This document shows, piece after piece, positions 3,086 through 19,080 of a stretch of DNA of 19,196 bases; the first letter of the stretch is position 1; every line of letters starts with the position of its first letter. The stretch is from a virus: the UHGV virus genome UHGV-1692018. The stretch is one strand, 5' to 3'. The translations under genes were made by a program, and so were the position numbers. Under the pieces are notes generated by a model. It ran no database searches. It saw only the letters and a program-made list of their open reading frames with translations, and was not told the origin of the DNA.

Positions 3086-4461
3086 TCCACCGTAAATTGA
3101 ATGCCTGATTTTGACGTGTAGCTACCTCCTGCTGATTGCTGAGTAGCTGGCTGTTGCCTTGATGATTTCTTCCCGCCATTACCGACATTAACGTTATATT
3201 GCTGGTTGTAATTGTCGGTATATTGCTGAATGTCGCGCATTGATTGTTGTAGTGCTTCAGGGCTTGAGAAATCAACCTGTGGCATACCTTGAAAATACAT
3301 CTTTGCTTCTGCAACGGTGTTGATACCAGATGCCCCCATGTCTCTGGCTGCTGCAATGCCCTGATTCTGCATCTTTCCTTGGATTCGCTGTGCAGCGTTG
3401 TATAGTTTCCTCTGATCACCACCAGAGGCACGGCTACGAATATCTGCACCAAGAGCAGGAGAACCTGAAGAGCCTGTAATGCCAGTCATGAAGCCAAGAT
3501 CGTCAATTGATGCGCCAGAAATTGCATCAAGATCTTTCTTCATTGCGTAATTCTGCGCGCTTGCTGCCGACGTGGCCGGAGCAGCAATAGAGCCAGCAGG
3601 AACGCGAACCATGTTCCCCTCATTGTCTATTCCTTCGTAGAACGCGTTAGCACCTGCACCATGAAGCTTCCCGCCTACGGTTACAGTTCTTCCGTCTGCT
3701 AGTTGAACTGTGCGCTCATTATTACCAACAGCCCCTTTCATTGATGCTCTCTGCATCGCTAAATCCTGACCTCTCCGTGCAGTAGCAGCAGATAAATCCT
3801 GACCGCGCATCGTGATATCCTGACCACGAGCAGTTAACTGATTTCTTTCTCCTTCAAGTCGACGCCCCTCCATTCGATCTTTGATATCGAAGTACTTCTC
3901 ATGACCGAGAGAAAATAGTGCCAGATTACCTGTGAAGTGCTGGAAGCCCTGCGGGTCATTAACCTGCATTTCCGCAATAGTTTCTGGAGGGATACCTAAA
4001 CGACGCATCTCCTTTTCGTTATCCATCATGAACCTGCCAAATGCACCCGGACCAAGCGACGAAGCGACCTGAGCCTTAAGCGCCAGATTGCCAAAATCAT
4101 TCCGCTGGGCGTCATCGACATACCCCATGCCTTTACGAACTTCCTCAAACTCTTCGGGGAATGCTGTAATAAGATTACGCATCTGCTCCCTGTCGCCGGA
4201 CGCATAAGCATCCGCATAACCTTTCTGGAATGCCGCTTTACGTTCCTGCTGTTGCTGCTGCTTATAAATATCAGCAACTCCAGCCAGACCACGTAACGCG
4301 GTCAGACCAACGTTATTTGCACCTGATCGAGCCAGTTCATTGTTTTCGCGAATCAGACCAAGCGTTGCATTAATGTCGCTTGCCTTTGGCGCATTCTCGT
4401 TTTGCGCACCAATTCCAGCCAGAAAACCACCAGAATTAATACCCTGTTGCCACGTAGCCAT
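3082..4461 (-). CDS. Ejection protein, P22 gp20-like
   Basis: 459 aa in the gp20 position (P22 gp20 about 471 aa from memory); low-complexity Gly/Ala/Gln-rich composition typical of podovirus ejection proteins. Confidence 0.75.
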
Positions 4462-15334: not shown

Positions 15335-15592
15335 CTACTTCGCTTTTGCTTCCGCTCGCTTACGCCGGCGCTCTTCTTTCCTCTCGGCTTTTGCCATGTC
15401 CATGAATGCCTGCATGATCGAGTTCCGCATCATGTAGCTAACAAAGTGATGATTGACACAGCCGTTGAGGCGCAGCTGCTCGCCAAACTCATCCACCGAG
15501 GCCAATGCTTCCATCATGCCCTTCTCGCCTTTCATGAACTCTGAGAAGTCGCGCCCCGCTCTGGAGGCGCATTCAATAACACGATCACTCAT
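15335..15592 (-). CDS. Hypothetical 85-aa protein with basic C-terminal tail, coupled to the KilA-N/Bro-N gene
   Basis: ATGA start/stop overlap with the upstream gene; C-terminus ERKEERRRKRAEAKAK is highly basic; no recognisable domain. Confidence 0.5.
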   Translation of the reverse strand: MSDRVIECASRAGRDFSEFMKGEKGMMEALASVDEFGEQLRLNGCVNHHFVSYMMRNSIMQAFMDMAKAERKEERRRKRAEAKAK

Positions 15593-16086
15593 CCCGGAAG
15601 CCCGGGGATCGTAATCTGCAGCTGGTTAGCCAGGGAGTTAATCTCAGCGACCAACACTGGCTTCGTATAGCGCCATGCTGCCAGCCCTTGTCCGCAGAAG
15701 CTCGCCATGTCTTTCTTCTGGTCAAACTCATGACATTTCATGTTGAGCTGCGCACTTAAGCTGTTGCGATGCTGAAGTTCTCCGGTGAAGTAGTCATCCA
15801 GGACTTTATAGGCTGCATATTTAAATCCGGGGTTTAGCCATGCTGCATAATCATAAGCAACAAACTTCCCGCCATATGTTCCACCGTGTACACCGCGCTC
15901 AGTAAAAACCACAGATTCGTGGTTTTTCTCCAGCTCGGCTAAGAACTCTTTGGTCTGCTTGTTTCGCAGGTAGTGGTACGGAGATTCAGATTCACTTTTA
16001 CCACTGGCTTTCCACATATCAGTGAGGCAGATCATTCCTGATTCATCAACACGGATCGGTGTATTAAAAAGCGTGATTGCTTTCAT
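15589..16086 (-). CDS. KilA-N/Bro-N-type (antirepressor-like) DNA-binding domain protein; moron-like insertion between lysis and terminase genes
   Basis: The listed 222-aa ORF starts at 16257 inside an upstream terminator; the likely start is the ATG at 16086 (MKAITLFNTPIRVDESGMICLTDMWKASG...), about 165 aa. The N-terminal pattern F..iR....G.....tD..ka.G fits the KilA-N/Bro-N consensus as recalled. Confidence 0.6.
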   Translation of the reverse strand: MKAITLFNTPIRVDESGMICLTDMWKASGKSESESPYHYLRNKQTKEFLAELEKNHESVVFTERGVHGGTYGGKFVAYDYAAWLNPGFKYAAYKVLDDYFTGELQHRNSLSAQLNMKCHEFDQKKDMASFCGQGLAAWRYTKPVLVAEINSLANQLQITIPGLPG

Positions 16087-16230
16087 AGCGTCTTTACCTT
16101 TTAGAAAGTGAGCCTGTCTCACAGAAAAGCCGCCCGAGAGAGGTCGCCACCTATAACGGCATTTCTCAGGCTCGCTTACTGAAAGGCTCTCGTTAATATG
16201 CGCGTGAGATGCGCTGTGAAATTCAGATAT

Positions 16231-16253
16231 AAAAAAGCCCCGCATCGCGAGGC
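16231..16253 (-). terminator. Intrinsic terminator downstream of Rz
   Basis: Minus-strand GCCUCGC-GAU-GCGGGGC (7-bp stem with one G.U pair) followed by UUUUUU, about 30 nt after the Rz stop. Confidence 0.6.
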
Positions 16254-16285
16254 TCATTAAATGGACTTTGTGATTTGCAAAAAAA

Positions 16286-16723
16286 TTATTTCAGGCATTG
16301 CGTCCTGATGTATTCCTGCAGGTAGTTAACCTGCGCGGTTATCTTGTCGATTCCACTTCGGAGACGGTAATAATTGAGTTCAGCATCTGCTGTAAGTCCT
16401 GGGCTTTCTCCATCGCCCATGCCGCTGGCTCCGGTCGTTGACTTTGCACAGGTGGCGGCGACTTGCAGGCGCTTACGCCCAGCAGAAACATCAGCACGGA
16501 GACTTTCGATAGTCGCGTTAGCATCAGCAAGCTCCTTTGTGTATCTGGCGTCGAGTTCTGCTACATCACGTTGACGCTTCTGCATATCAGCGATGATGGA
16601 TGTGGCTTTATCGCGCTGCTCTTTGTAGGTCATGGCGTTATCACGGTAATGATTAACAGCCCATGACAGGCAGACGATGATGCAGATAACCAGAGCGGAG
16701 ATAATCGCGGTTACCCTGCTCAT
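16286..16723 (-). CDS. Rz: Rz-type i-spanin (inner-membrane spanin)
   Basis: The ATG at 16723 overlaps the endolysin stop (ATGA). N-terminal transmembrane segment ([18 protein letters not shown]) followed by a charged, probably coiled-coil periplasmic region. An Rz1-like ORF is embedded in the +1 frame. Confidence 0.8.
16339..16530 (-). CDS. Rz1: Rz1-type o-spanin (outer-membrane lipoprotein) embedded within Rz
   Basis: Lies wholly inside Rz in another frame. Signal peptide with lipobox VSAC (FLLGVSAC) followed by a Pro-rich mature region ([16 protein letters not shown]), the classic Rz1 signature. Confidence 0.8.
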
Positions 16724-17398: not shown

Positions 17399-17525
17399 GC
17401 TCTACCCCTTCATTGAGGGGATTTGCTCTATTTAATTAGGAATAAGGTCGATTACTGATAGAACAAATCCAGGCTACTGTGTTTAGTAATCAGATTTGTT
17501 CGTGACCGATATGCACGGGCAAAAC

Positions 17526-17555
17526 GGCAGGAGGTTGTTAGCGCAACCTCTTGCC
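17526..17555. promoter_or_regulatory. Strong 12-bp-stem hairpin in the leader upstream of the lysis genes; possible attenuator/terminator
   Basis: GGCAGGAGGTTG, 6-nt loop, CAACCTCTTGCC (one G.U pair in RNA). On the minus strand it is followed by GUUUUG. About 130 nt upstream of the holin start. Confidence 0.3.
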
Positions 17556-17804
17556 ACCCGCTTTCACGAAGGTCATGTGTAGAAGGCCGCAGCGTAACTA
17601 TCACTGATGAATTCAGGATAGCCAGTGGCTACGGCTCAGTTTGGGTTGTGCTGTTGCTGGGCGGCGATGACGCCTGTACGCATTTGGTGATCCGGTTCTG
17701 CTTCCGGTATTCGCTTAATTCAGCACAACGGAAAGAGCACTGGCTAACCAGGCGCGCCGACTCTTCACGATTATCGACTCAATGCTCTTACCTGTTGTGC
17801 AAAT

Positions 17805-17847
17805 AAAAAAAGCCACCGTTGCAACTTAAGAGTCACTAACGGCAGCT
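17805..17847 (-). terminator. Terminator-like hairpin plus U7 tract just downstream of the HNH endonuclease gene
   Basis: Minus-strand AGCUGCCGUU ... AACGGUGGCU (about 10 bp with two G.U pairs, large loop) followed by UUUUUUU; starts about 10 nt after the HNH stop. Confidence 0.45.
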
Positions 17848-17854
17848 TACATCT

Positions 17855-18367
17855 TTAAACGGTATGATATTTCATTCTGGCTGCCTCAAAAGCCGCAGCG
17901 GCAAGTTCGGCAGTGTCATGGTATCCAAGGTTAATACACTTTCCAGACGCATTAATTCTTGCTCTCCATTTCCCGTACTTAGCATCCCAAGACACGCCAC
18001 GGTATCCAGATTTATTATTCTTCTGAATTTTCCTGTTTTGCATATTTTCGGAATGAGTGACAAGACGAAGATTTGATATCCGGTTATCTGTTCTTACCCT
18101 GTTGATGTGATCAATAAAACCATCGGGCATGGTGCCATAAACAATCAACCATGCCAGTCTGTGAGCAGGGCATGCTTTACCATTAATCATAATCATTAAA
18201 TACCCATCAGAATTTATTGATGAGCATTTCTTGAAAGCAAAACGAGAGTTCCATGTCAAAGTGGTCCTCTCTCTCCCCTGCCTCCATCTCCAGTGAAAGT
18301 CGCCTGATGATGGATTGTAATCAACAACAGAAAGCACCATTTCTGGCGTTAATTTTATTTCTTTCAT
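17855..18367 (-). CDS. Free-standing HNH homing endonuclease with C-terminal AP2-type DNA-binding domain
   Basis: 170 aa. HNH motif region AHRLAWLIVYGTMPDGFIDHINRVRTDNRISNLRLVTHSEN; C-terminal AP2-like region GYRGVSWDAKYGKWRARI...GYHDTAELAAAAFEAARMKY. Confidence 0.85.
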   Translation of the reverse strand: MKEIKLTPEMVLSVVDYNPSSGDFHWRWRQGRERTTLTWNSRFAFKKCSSINSDGYLMIMINGKACPAHRLAWLIVYGTMPDGFIDHINRVRTDNRISNLRLVTHSENMQNRKIQKNNKSGYRGVSWDAKYGKWRARINASGKCINLGYHDTAELAAAAFEAARMKYHTV

Positions 18368-18489
18368 CGCTTTACCTTAGGGATAGAGCCTGTTCGCGTA
18401 GATATGACAGCCAAGAGCGGAGCGATGTTTCCACCACCATATCTCAGGCCCATATCACTAAGACTCTTGTTTTGATTGCACGCGAATGC

Positions 18490-18512
18490 AAAAAAGCCCA
18501 CAGGAGGTGGGC
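18490..18512 (-). terminator. Intrinsic terminator about 50 bp downstream of the Q-like gene (tR'-like)
   Basis: Minus-strand GCCCAC-CUCCU-GUGGGC (perfect 6-bp GC stem, 5-nt loop) followed by UUUUUU. Confidence 0.7.
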
Positions 18513-18554
18513 TTGTGATGGTTGCTGAATGCAAAAGCAGCAGCATATGTGAAT

Positions 18555-18584
18555 ATTATGGCTAAATGGCTAATTGCATGTCAA
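18555..18584 (-). promoter_or_regulatory. Candidate late promoter (pR'-like) overlapping the 3' end of the Q-like gene
   Basis: Minus strand has TTGACA (18579-18584), an 18-nt spacer containing the Q stop codon, then CATAAT (18555-18560). Predicted start is about 18548, giving a roughly 55-nt RNA ending at the 18490-18512 terminator. A -10-like element (TATGCT) lies in the initial transcribed region. Confidence 0.45.
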
Positions 18585-19080
18585 GACTTTTAACAGCAAC
18601 ATGCTTAACTTTCTCAACACGTTTACGCATTTTGAAAGCATTTTGCATTGGTTGGTACAAAACAAATAACGACGCTTTCAGGATGTCGTCAATTTCGTTT
18701 CTACAGGTTGCCATTGAAGGTTTTCTCCATCCCTCGCCACCACGTCCACACATCTTGCGTGGCTTTGCAGTCGCGTGATAGTAGGATGCAATTGCTCGCT
18801 TAGATGAACCATGAGCGTAGTAGCTGAGGAGGATGCCAAAGGCTTTTTTGTCAATGTACATGACGGAATCGACGACCTGAGAAATCAACATTCCATCATC
18901 ATCATTGCACATTGGCCTTGTCATAACTCTTCCCGGCTCTACGCTCTCCATGAACTTCGCTATTACGCTGCTCATGCGCTTTTCCAGACGACCTGAATAA
19001 ACCCATGCGCCCCACAGTTCAAGCCAGCCATTCAGCCACTCATGCTGTTCTTTGGTGAGGTTTAGTTCTCTTATGCCCAC
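18562..19080 (-). CDS. Q-like late-gene antitermination protein (QuuD/phage-82-type family, tentative)
   Basis: 172 aa, GTG start with GGAG upstream. Motifs WLELWGAW and RPMCNDDDGMLI resemble E. coli prophage Q-type antiterminators (QuuD: ERWGAW ... RPQICDDDAMII, recalled from memory). Located immediately upstream of the late promoter/terminator and the lysis cassette. Confidence 0.6.
   Translation of the reverse strand: MGIRELNLTKEQHEWLNGWLELWGAWVYSGRLEKRMSSVIAKFMESVEPGRVMTRPMCNDDDGMLISQVVDSVMYIDKKAFGILLSYYAHGSSKRAIASYYHATAKPRKMCGRGGEGWRKPSMATCRNEIDDILKASLFVLYQPMQNAFKMRKRVEKVKHVAVKSLDMQLAI

What the first reader, a model, noticed from the sequence alone, without database searches (positions are those of the whole stretch)
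18490..18584. Compact Q-dependent late control region: strong promoter embedded in the end of the Q-like gene feeding a terminator about 55 nt downstream
A near-consensus promoter (TTGACA, 18 bp, CATAAT) overlaps the Q-like stop codon on the minus strand, with a clean GC-stem/U6 terminator roughly 55 nt after the predicted start. This resembles the pR'-qut-tR' arrangement of lambdoid phages, where RNA polymerase makes a short terminated RNA unless Q modifies it, but more compact than in lambda and closer to what I recall for phages 82 and 21. The first transcribed bases contain a -10-like element (TATGCT) that could act as the sigma-dependent pause needed for Q loading.
Basis: partly seen in the sequence, partly recalled or inferred. 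Interest (0 to 1): 0.5.

Follow-up and report, generated by a model that had tools for sequence, protein, structure and literature searches.

The report
Phage-21-type late gene switch, invaded
This is the ordinary late-gene on/off switch of a P22-like prophage (a promoter that makes a short terminated RNA unless the phage Q protein rides along with RNA polymerase), of the well-studied phage 21 type, with the twist that a selfish endonuclease gene has inserted into it and brought its own replacement pause signal and terminator.

Summary
On the minus strand there is TTGACA, an 18-bp spacer and CATAAT (18584-18555). This is the best promoter match in the window and it overlaps the Q stop codon. 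A hairpin plus T6 terminator follows at 18514-18490. The pair never arose in 300 shuffles.

The upstream protein is a close relative of phage 21 Q, whose structures are solved (E 3e-92; residues 1-102 almost identical). The promoter spacer holds two direct repeats (TTAGCC twice, 8 bp apart) in the register of the phage 21 Q-binding element, with C at -21 and -13. TATGCT lies at +2 to +7, where phage 21 has TAAGCT. The predicted terminated RNA is about 57-60 nt.

In 35 family loci the repeat word co-varies with Q residues 128 and 95.

This leader and terminator are an alternative allele, also found in Hafnia phage yong1. They also form the 5' part of a 698-bp unit carrying an HNH homing-endonuclease gene. 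That unit sits inside the pause element of a phage-21-type leader, whose remnant and terminator survive at 17850-17805.

This is a known kind of switch with a modest new variant. No experiment was done.

The parts
18562..19080 (-). Q antiterminator gene, 172 aa, phage 21 family. Residues 1-102 are almost identical to Q21. The DNA-reading part differs (H95R, R128N, loop 103-120), and a 10-aa C-terminal extension reads through the -35 and QBE subsite 1.
   Evidence: Pfam PF06530, E 1.1e-25. PDB 6jnx and 6p18 (Q21), E 3e-92, with alignment. Alignment with Q21 and yong1 Q.
18579..18584 (-). -35 hexamer TTGACA of the late promoter pR' (positions -36 to -31).
   Evidence: TTGAC[AT] is present at this place in all 35 family loci examined.
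18568..18573 (-). Predicted Q-binding element, upstream subsite TTAGCC (-25 to -20; C at -21).
   Evidence: Same register as the phage 21 QBE subsite 1, where the C:G at -21 is essential (PMC6606751). Co-variation with Q residues 95 and 128.
18560..18565 (-). Predicted Q-binding element, downstream subsite TTAGCC (-17 to -12; C at -13). It contains the Q stop codon TAG and overlaps the first base of the -10.
18555..18560 (-). -10 hexamer CATAAT (-12 to -7).
   Evidence: In 33 distinct family sequences, -11A and -7T are each 97% conserved.
18548..18548 (-). Predicted transcription start (A, +1).
   Evidence: It lies 7 nt after the -10. It is homologous to the start of the RNA annotated in the phage 21 record AJ237660. 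It places the QBE C's at -21 and -13 as published. It was not measured here.
18542..18547 (-). -10-like sigma-dependent pause element TATGCT (+2 to +7).
   Evidence: Family consensus TA(A/T)G(C/G)T at +2 to +7, with +2T 100%, +3A 100%, +5G 94% and +7T 97%. TATGCT also occurs in yong1, L060 and Pantoea L094.
18532..18533 (-). T+16/G+17, a near-invariant dinucleotide in family leaders. It is a candidate pause-site Y-1/G+1.
   Evidence: 94% conserved at both positions in 33 distinct sequences, while the neighbouring positions are 45-61%. The role is inferred.
18490..18514 (-). Intrinsic terminator t1: stem 18514-18494 with a 5-nt loop, T6 at 18495-18490. It acts as the first tR'.
   Evidence: A homologous terminator sits at the same distance in yong1. 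HK629 annotates it as a rho-independent terminator.
17855..18367 (-). HNH homing-endonuclease gene (HNH_3 + AP2 domains, 170 aa), lying between the two terminators.
   Evidence: Pfam PF13392 E 3.8e-18 and PF00847 E 1.6e-8. It belongs to the large family of free-standing phage HNH endonucleases; apart from HK629, the nearest phage relatives listed are at or below 42% identity.
17848..18545 (-). The 698-bp inserted unit: leader 1 from +4, t1, a 122-nt spacer, and the HNH gene to ...GATGTA. The ends are ambiguous by up to 3 nt because xTA flanks both sides. In this promoter class the discriminator (18554-18549, ATTCAC) is also non-native.
   Evidence: Empty sites are 162-163 bp against 861 bp filled. 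Junctions were compared with Sf6, Nil2 and L155-157.
17805..17850 (-). Remnant of the original phage-21-type leader (G TAAGCT GCCG...) with the intact phage-21-type terminator (hairpin 17848-17810, U-run 17811-17805). It has no promoter of its own and acts as a second terminator.
   Evidence: Identical to the phage 21 and Nil2 leader from +2. The fold is -20.2 kcal/mol, z = -5.3, the same structure as in Nil2.

Best explanation
This is the late-gene control region of a P22-like prophage and belongs to the phage 21 family of Q antitermination systems.

Proposed mechanism:
1. Host sigma-70 RNA polymerase starts at about 18548 from a strong promoter that overlaps the end of the Q gene.
2. Sigma region 2 re-binds the -10-like TATGCT at +2 to +7, and the polymerase pauses at about +14 to +17.
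3. Without Q, transcription ends at the hairpin/T6 terminator (18514-18490), giving an RNA of about 57-60 nt.
4. When Q has accumulated, two Q protomers bind the two TTAGCC repeats in the promoter spacer (-25 to -20 and -17 to -12). The upstream protomer inserts its ring into the RNA exit channel of the paused polymerase, and sigma leaves.
5. The modified polymerase then ignores this terminator. It also ignores the second, phage-21-type terminator at 17848-17805 and any later ones. It transcribes the HNH gene, then the holin, endolysin and spanin genes, and then the head genes.

Shown here: the sequence elements, their register, their conservation and co-variation across the family, and the homology of Q to the structurally solved Q21.

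Inferred: the start site, the pause, termination efficiency and Q dependence.

The leader and terminator used here ('leader 1') are an allele different from phage 21's. They arrived as the 5' part of a 698-bp unit carrying an HNH homing-endonuclease gene. That unit lies inside the pause element of a 21-type leader and rebuilds it (TA|AGCT becomes TA|TGCT).
For: **Q identity**
- Pfam PF06530.
- PDB Q21 entries at E 3e-92; residues 1-102 are identical except H95R, which includes the segment that forms the exit-channel ring (10.1101/651190).

**QBE**
- Published Q21 QBE: two direct repeats of TGAGCA between -35 and -10, with essential C:G at -21 and -13, contacted by H95, A124, R127, R128 and R113 (PMC6606751).
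- A template with only -40 to -1 of PR'21 plus an SDPE is enough to load Q21.
- Nil2, with a true Q21, shows TGAGCAAATGAGCA in that register.
- The window has TTAGCC twice, 8 bp apart, with C at -21 and -13.

**Co-variation in 35 loci**
- QBE position 2 is T with N128 in 14 of 14 loci and G with R128 in 20 of 20.
- Position 6 is C with R95 in 17 of 17, and A with H, Y or L95 in 17 of 18.
- All four combinations occur, and class switches occur on at least four N-terminal backgrounds.

**Pause element and leader**
- The window matches every near-invariant family position: -11A, -7T, +2T, +3A, +5G, +7T, +8G, +9C, +16T, +17G.
- The phage 21 record annotates a 50-nt RNA starting at the homologous A.
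- Leader 1 plus its terminator is the only leader between Q and the holin in Hafnia phage yong1.
- It is also the only late leader in the PhiR12 phages, whose records list K-12 and E. coli C as hosts.
- HK629, an isolated phage, has the whole arrangement at 98-99.7% identity.

**Chance and other promoters**
- The promoter-terminator pair occurred in 0 of 300 shuffles.
- No other minus-strand promoter-like site lies between 18555 and the holin gene.
Against: - No transcript mapping, pause assay or Q-dependence test exists for this sequence. The start site is inferred from spacing and homology.
- The 18-bp spacer is one base longer than optimal.
- Leader 1 lacks the GCCGT..GTG..CTTAAG stretch that most family leaders carry at +8 to +30. 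If that stretch matters for Q21-type loading, leader 1 might work differently.
- The QBE-residue co-variation could partly reflect physical linkage, because the DNA-reading part of Q is encoded within about 250 bp of the QBE.
- HK629's depositors annotated pR' elsewhere, between t1 and the HNH gene.
Confidence: 0.85

Rival explanations
1. The hairpin at 18514-18490 is simply the terminator that ends the early (Q) transcript. The promoter-like hexamers are chance, and the real late promoter lies further downstream just before the HNH gene, as annotated for HK629.
For: The HK629 GenBank record annotates the hairpin as a terminator and places a 'putative late promoter pR'' hexamer between it and the HNH gene. 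An 11/12 promoter match alone occurs by chance in 19% of shuffled windows.
Against: The scans find no promoter-like site at the HK629-annotated position, either in the window or in PhiR12_1. The -35, repeats, -10 and TA(A/T)GxT architecture is conserved in register next to Q in 35 loci from more than 15 genera. Sf6 annotates the same promoter as pR' by homology to phage 21. Transcripts arriving from the early operon would be N- or gp24-modified and terminator-resistant in any case (established lambdoid biology; not tested here).
Confidence: 0.04
2. The promoter and Q-binding repeats are real, but the HNH insertion broke the pause element. Q can then no longer load, the prophage is late-defective, and leader 1 and t1 are only cargo that insulates the endonuclease gene.
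For: In the Q21 context the insertion point lies inside the -10-like element. Beyond +12, leader 1 shares no sequence with the 21-type leader.
Against: The junction recreates a -10-like hexamer (TATGCT) with the critical A and T, and keeps G+8, C+9, T+16 and G+17. HK629 has the same arrangement and is an isolated phage. The PhiR12 phages and yong1 have leader 1 as their only late leader. The arrangement is present in 39 complete E. coli genomes and 39 IMG/VR contigs, in several downstream contexts.
Confidence: 0.05
3. Besides being a by-product of the switch, the ~58-nt terminated RNA made in lysogens is a trans-acting small RNA, as shown for StxS from the pR' leader of Shiga-toxin phages.
For: pR'-type promoters are constitutive, and their terminated leader can become an Hfq-bound regulatory sRNA (PMC7547250). 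The predicted RNA has a 5' hairpin, a single-stranded linker and a terminator hairpin with a U-tail. Positions +1 to +25 are identical between the window and Hafnia phage yong1, although overall identity is 83.5%.
Against: No Rfam family matches. The conservation of +1 to +25 is already explained by the pause element. No target, Hfq-binding or expression data exist. This is not exclusive of the main explanation.
Confidence: 0.1

Closest known systems
Phage 21 late regulatory cassette (Q21, PR'21 with embedded QBE, sigma-dependent pause element, tR'); structures 6P18, 6P19, 6P1A and 6JNX
   Same: Homologous Q protein, with the N-terminal 102 residues almost identical. The promoter abuts the Q gene. 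Two direct 6-bp repeats lie 8 bp apart in the spacer, with C at -21 and -13. A -10-like hexamer sits at +2 to +7. The terminated RNA is short (50 nt annotated for phage 21, about 57-60 nt predicted here).
   Different: The repeat word is TTAGCC instead of TGAGCA, with Q residues R95 and N128 instead of H95 and R128. The spacer is 18 bp instead of 17. The Q ORF runs into the promoter. The pause hexamer is TATGCT instead of TAAGCT. The leader beyond +12 and the terminator are unrelated in sequence. The original 21-type leader and terminator survive about 700 nt downstream, behind an HNH gene.
Sf6, HK75 and CUS-3 late region (Sf6 gene 59 Q-like protein; pR', qut and tR' annotated by homology to phage 21)
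   Same: Same Q allele (about 98-99% nucleotide identity) and the same promoter and TTAGCC repeats up to the last base of the -10.
   Different: Sf6 continues with discriminator TAGAAG and the uninterrupted 21-type leader and terminator. The window has ATTCAC, leader 1, t1 and the HNH gene inserted before that leader.
Lambda pR'-qut-tR' (Q-lambda, 6S RNA)
   Same: [quoted passage not shown] The DNA downstream of the second terminator (17805-17416) is 97.7% identical to lambda 44781-45170.
   Different: Q here has no detectable sequence similarity to Q-lambda: only Q21 entries were found in the PDB at E up to 1. Lambda's terminated RNA is 194 nt (textbook value, not tested here), against about 58 nt. 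According to PMC6606751, lambda Q also needs a -35-like element that is absent from other lambdoid late promoters.
Free-standing HNH homing endonuclease genes of phages (HNH_3 + AP2 type)
   Same: Same domain architecture. A small intergenic gene with fixed junctions is present or absent between otherwise near-identical genomes and occurs in several flanking contexts.
   Different: No cleavage site or homing was demonstrated. The insertion site is a transcription-regulatory element (the pause element of a late leader), and the unit carries a replacement for it. I did not find this described in the papers searched.

Membership tests
Phage-21-type Q antitermination cassette | Q protein homologous to Q21 | tested here: met
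   PF06530 at E 1.1e-25. phmmer against the PDB hits 6jnx and 6p18 at E 3e-92 and 1e-91 over residues 1-162.
Phage-21-type Q antitermination cassette | Sigma-70 promoter immediately after or overlapping the 3' end of Q | tested here: met
   TTGACA, 18 bp, CATAAT at 18584-18555, with the Q stop at 18564-18562. The same placement is seen in 35 family loci. This is sequence-level evidence only.
Phage-21-type Q antitermination cassette | QBE: two direct-repeat subsites 8 bp apart between -35 and -10, with C:G at -21 and -13 | tested here: met
   TTAGCC at 18573-18568 and 18565-18560, with C's at 18569 and 18561 (-21 and -13). This matches the register in PMC6606751 and Nil2. The word differs from TGAGCA and co-varies with residues 128 and 95.
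Phage-21-type Q antitermination cassette | -10-like sigma-dependent pause element in the initial transcribed region | tested here: met
   TATGCT at +2 to +7, in the same register as TAAGCT of phage 21. Family conservation is +2T and +3A at 100% and +7T at 97%.
Phage-21-type Q antitermination cassette | Intrinsic terminator between the pause site and the late genes | tested here: met
   t1 at 18514-18490, plus the 21-type terminator at 17848-17805.
Phage-21-type Q antitermination cassette | Promoter-proximal pausing and Q-dependent read-through | not testable with these tools
   This needs in vitro transcription or in vivo reporters. The only indirect support is the viability of HK629, the PhiR12 phages and yong1, which carry this leader.
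Lambda Q family | Q protein homologous to Q-lambda | tested here: not met
   No Pfam family other than PF06530 and DUF1133 was found at E up to 0.01. No lambda Q chain appeared among PDB hits at E up to 1.
Free-standing HNH homing endonuclease element | HNH nuclease domain with a DNA-binding domain, encoded by a small stand-alone gene | tested here: met
   HNH_3 (E 3.8e-18) plus AP2 (E 1.6e-8), 170 aa. Thousands of phage homologues are annotated as HNH or homing endonucleases.
Free-standing HNH homing endonuclease element | Presence/absence polymorphism with constant junctions at one target site in otherwise homologous genomes | tested here: met
   Empty sites are 162-163 bp against 861 bp filled in E. 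coli genomes. The right junction GATGTA|AGCTGCC is identical in 39 IMG/VR loci, across at least 5 downstream contexts and two Q/QBE classes.
Free-standing HNH homing endonuclease element | Endonuclease cleaves the empty allele and is copied into it by repair | not testable with these tools
   This requires a cleavage assay and mixed-infection crosses.

The most novel reading that the evidence does not exclude
The 698-bp unit (leader 1 from +4, terminator t1, HNH gene) is a homing-endonuclease element whose target is the sigma-dependent pause element of phage-21-type late leaders. It enters between TA and AGCT of the -10-like hexamer and rebuilds a working pause element (TATGCT). It also supplies its own terminator, so Q control of the late operon is preserved and the endonuclease itself becomes a Q-dependent late gene. 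It has spread into phages with two different Q/QBE specificities. Separately, the family data suggest a simple recognition code for Q21-type proteins: residue 128 reads QBE position 2 (Arg with G, Asn with T), and residue 95 reads position 6 (Arg with C; His, Tyr or Leu with A).
Probability: 0.45. Interest if true: 0.55.

Novelty: new member of a known kind. Interest (0 to 1): 0.33.

Why it matters
As a late-gene switch this is textbook biology. Its value is in correct annotation: the closest GenBank record, HK629, places pR' elsewhere.

Two by-products could be useful to specialists.

First, the family-wide table links Q residues 95 and 128 to bases 6 and 2 of the Q-binding repeats. That is a directly testable specificity code for a structurally solved antiterminator. 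It bears on which Q alleles can cross-activate which late promoters, including stx-bearing phages that carry Q21.

Second, a selfish endonuclease gene sits inside a regulatory pause element and carries a functional replacement. This shows how mobile genes can invade essential control regions without killing the host phage.

Tried and rejected
- **Rfam.** A scan of the whole window at gathering thresholds gave no family.
- **tRNA scan.** None were found. Sf6 and phage 21 have tRNA genes after tR', so this showed the window has a different downstream module, which turned out to be lambda-like.
- **Original phage 21 paper.** Guo et al. 1991 (PMC207295) is not held. The phage 21 start site is therefore taken from the AJ237660 annotation and from the numbering in PMC6606751.
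- **60-aa ORF at 18364-18546.** It starts at +3 of the transcript and ends in ATGA with the HNH start. It has no Pfam hit and is interrupted in yong1 and L060, so I rejected it as a gene.
- **Leader 1 as mere cargo of the HNH unit.** I first thought this. yong1 and L060 have the leader without the HNH gene, which revised that view. L060 could, however, be a deletion derivative between the two T-runs.
- **SNPs upstream in Q travelling with the cassette** (co-conversion tracts). No consistent association was found.
- **My simple terminator finder** missed the bulged 21-type hairpin. RNAfold was used for it instead.
- **Literature searches** for a prior description of an endonuclease gene in a Q leader, or of HK629's late region, found nothing specific.

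Full report
**1. The observation**

All coordinates below are on the minus strand.
- TTGACA (18584-18579), an 18-nt spacer and CATAAT (18560-18555) form an 11/12 promoter match, the best of 13 in the window.
- The 172-aa ORF at 18562-19080 ends with TAG at 18564-18562, inside the spacer.
- A hairpin AAGCCCAC-CTCCT-GTGGGCTT (18514-18494) with a T6 run (18495-18490) follows.
- With the start placed 7 nt after the -10 (A at 18548), the GC stem is +37 to +53 and the T-run is +54 to +59. The terminated RNA would be about 57-60 nt.
- TATGCT lies at +2 to +7.
- The 61-nt leader folds at -21.5 kcal/mol, z = -3.4.
- In 300 dinucleotide shuffles of the window, an 11/12-or-better promoter appeared in 19%. 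A promoter followed within 110 nt by a strong terminator never appeared.

**2. What the neighbours are**

- The ORF is a phage antiterminator Q (PF06530, E 1.1e-25).
- It is a close relative of phage 21 Q, the protein in structures 6JNX and 6P18 (E 3e-92). Residues 1-102 are identical except H95R, residues 103-162 are diverged, and there are ten extra C-terminal residues.
- Downstream on the same strand lie, in order: an HNH_3 + AP2 endonuclease gene (17855-18367), an HP1-family holin, a phage lysozyme, Rz with an embedded short ORF (16339-16530), a KilA-N protein, and further ORFs that the near-identical VR50 prophage annotates as P22-type packaging and head genes.
- Over the 861-bp query (17780-18640) the window is 99.9% identical to a P22-like prophage in E. 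coli VR50.
- There is no Rfam family and no tRNA in the window.

**3. Comparison with the phage 21 system**

Shi et al. (PMC6606751) report the following for phage 21:
- The Q-binding element consists of two direct repeats of TGAGCA between -35 and -10.
- The C:G pairs at -21 and -13 are essential.
- H95, A124, R127 and R128 contact bases, and R113 lies in the minor groove.
- The -10-like pause element is in the initial transcribed region.

Yin et al. (10.1101/651190) loaded Q21 on a template containing only -40 to -1 of PR'21 plus a pause element.

Phage Nil2, which has a true Q21, reads TTGACA TCGT TGAGCA AA TGAGCA ACACTATTCGC A TAAGCT GCCG.... The phage 21 record annotates a 50-nt RNA starting at that A.

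The window reads TTGACA TGCAA TTAGCC AT TTAGCC ATAATATTCAC A TATGCT GCTG.... The register is the same, the C's fall at -21 and -13, and a -10-like hexamer lies at +2 to +7. The repeat word is different, and Q has R95 and N128 in place of H95 and R128. Sf6 carries the same Q allele and promoter, and annotates pR', qut and tR' by homology to phage 21.

**4. Family-wide test**

I collected 32 more loci from GTDB genomes, 60-98% identical in Q, from Escherichia, Atlantibacter, Shimwellia, Pantoea, Cedecea, Enterobacter, Yersinia, Rahnella, Xenorhabdus, Serratia, Morganella, Providencia, Edwardsiella and others.

All usable loci show TTGAC[AT], two repeats 8 bp apart, a -10, and TA(A/T)G(C/G/T)T at +2 to +7. 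Conservation in 33 distinct sequences is as follows:

| Positions | Conservation |
|---|---|
| -11A, -7T | 97% each |
| +2T, +3A | 100% each |
| +5G | 94% |
| +7T | 97% |
| +8G | 94% |
| +9C | 91% |
| +16T, +17G | 94% each |
| interspersed positions -6..-1 and +13..+15 | 33-64% |

The window matches every one of the conserved positions.

The repeat word co-varies with Q:
- Position 2 is T with N128 in 14 of 14 loci and G with R128 in 20 of 20. One locus with TTACCC has K128.
- Position 6 is C with R95 in 17 of 17, and A with H, Y or L95 in 17 of 18.
- All four combinations occur (TTAGCC, TTAGCA, TGAGCC, TGAGCA).
- Switches of class occur between proteins whose N-terminal 94 residues are 88-100% identical, in at least four backgrounds.

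Part of this could be linkage, because the DNA-reading part of Q is encoded next to the promoter. The combinatorial pattern, and the Arg-with-G pairing, argue for real recognition. This supports the spacer repeats as the Q-binding element and the promoter as the Q-loading site.

**5. The leader is a different allele and part of an inserted unit**

- Similarity to Sf6 and phage 21 stops at the last base of the -10, at 18555.
- The 21-type leader reappears from its +1 directly after the HNH stop codon: G TAAGCT GCCGTTAGTGACTCTTAAGTTGCAACGGTGGC T7 at 17850-17805. It folds exactly as in Nil2, at -20.2 kcal/mol.
- Many E. coli genomes have the empty site, with the Q end and the 21-type terminator within 162-163 bp. 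39 of 5426 genomes have the filled 861-bp form.
- Among the 85 fetched loci that carry this promoter (the window included), 69 have the 21-type leader only, 14 contain the HNH gene start (13 complete cassettes plus the truncated PhiR12 copy), and 2 have leader 1 without HNH.
- Leader 1 is a genuine late leader in its own right. Hafnia phage yong1 has it (83.5% identity over 88 nt, with +1 to +25 identical) as the only sequence between its Q21-family Q and the holin.
- The PhiR12 phages, whose records list K-12 and E. coli C as hosts, have it as their only late leader. Their HNH gene is truncated and no 21-type leader is present.
- In 39 IMG/VR loci with the HNH gene, the right junction GATGTA|AGCTGCC is invariant, while at least five downstream contexts occur.
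- Three loci (L155-157) have the unit behind a true Q21 gene and TGAGCA promoter with the native discriminator ATTCGC. There ATA|AGCTGCC has become ATA|TGCTGCTGC...HNH...GATGTA|AGCTGCC.

So the unit is 698 bp, lies inside the pause hexamer, and recreates one (TATGCT). In the window's promoter class the six discriminator bases are also replaced (ATTCAC or GTTCAC instead of TAGAAG).

The endonuclease belongs to the very large family of free-standing phage HNH endonucleases. Only HK629 is a close match among phage records. Homing is the likeliest explanation for fixed junctions in varied contexts, but cleavage was not and cannot be tested here.

**6. Mechanism proposed**

The promoter fires constitutively. 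Sigma re-binds TATGCT and the polymerase pauses. Without Q, transcription stops at t1. With Q bound at the TTAGCC repeats, the polymerase is modified. It then reads through t1, the HNH gene and the second terminator, and continues into the lysis and morphogenesis genes.

The HNH gene is therefore bracketed by two terminators and expressed only late. The elements, their register and their conservation are shown. The start, pause, termination and Q dependence are inferred.

**7. Rivals**

- The HK629 depositors' placement of pR' between t1 and the HNH gene has no support from the scans or from conservation.
- The idea that the insertion inactivated Q loading is contradicted by isolated phages carrying this leader.
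- An extra role of the terminated RNA as an sRNA, as for StxS (PMC7547250), is possible but unsupported.

**8. Verdict**

The region is a member of the phage 21 family of Q-dependent late switches, a known and structurally understood kind. A near-identical sequence is already in GenBank (HK629, and Sf6 for the promoter).

The new points are modest:
- the correct placement of pR' in this allele;
- the QBE and Q-residue correspondence;
- the endonuclease unit that occupies and rebuilds the pause element.

Interest is about 0.33.

Noticed in passing
window 17416-17805 (-): This stretch is 97.7% identical to lambda J02459 44781-45170. From memory, lambda's tR' ends just before that point, so homology to lambda would begin right after the T-run of the second terminator. 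The Q-promoter-leader-terminator block behaves as a swap module bounded by the terminator. L060 likewise joins leader 1 to this kind of DNA inside the T-run.
   Followed up: partly
window 18364-18546 (-): A 60-aa ORF begins at the ATG at +3 of the predicted transcript, runs through terminator t1 and ends in ATGA overlapping the HNH start codon. It has no Pfam hit and is interrupted in yong1 and L060, so it is probably chance.
   Followed up: partly
window 18562-18594 (-): This Q allele is 10 aa longer than Q21 because the ORF reads through the -35 hexamer and QBE subsite 1. Its TAG stop codon is part of QBE subsite 2.
   Followed up: yes
L002, L006, L089-L117, about +8 to +30 of each leader: Most Q21-family leaders share GCCGT..GTG..(T)CTTAAG after the pause hexamer, even where the terminator lies much further downstream (Yersinia, Morganella). 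Leader 1 (window, yong1) lacks it. Its function is unknown.
   Followed up: no
L003 (AJ237660, phage 21) 1176-1189: The deposited phage 21 sequence reads TGAGCAAGTAGCAA, with 7-bp spacing and a second subsite GTAGCA. Nil2 and several other loci, as well as the structural paper, have TGAGCA twice, 8 bp apart. This is probably a 1-nt error or variant in the old record.
   Followed up: partly
L001 (HK629) 3190-3195, about window 18402-18397: The GenBank annotation of HK629 places 'putative late promoter pR'' between terminator t1 and the HNH gene. No promoter-like site is found there, and the conserved pR' lies upstream of t1. This is a likely misannotation.
   Followed up: yes
L004 (PhiR12_1) 2690-2765: In the PhiR12 phages the HNH gene is cut off after about 24 codons and replaced by unrelated DNA that leads to a CP-933V-type large ORF. 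The cassette has decayed there while leader 1 and t1 were kept.
   Followed up: partly
window 16235-16255 (-): A strong terminator-like hairpin (9 pairs, 6 GC, T-run) lies between the Rz/Rz1 genes and the KilA-N gene, inside the late operon. Q-modified polymerase would have to read through it.
   Followed up: no
window 15589-16257 (-): The KilA-N/ORF11CD3 ORF is 222 aa from the first ATG, but the matching VR50 gene is annotated as 165 aa. The start codon is uncertain, and the longer form would overlap the terminator above.
   Followed up: no
L119 (E. coli VR50 prophage), outside the window: The same prophage carries two further HNH endonuclease genes, one among the recombination genes and one next to an IS3 element, so it is rich in selfish nuclease genes.
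   Followed up: no
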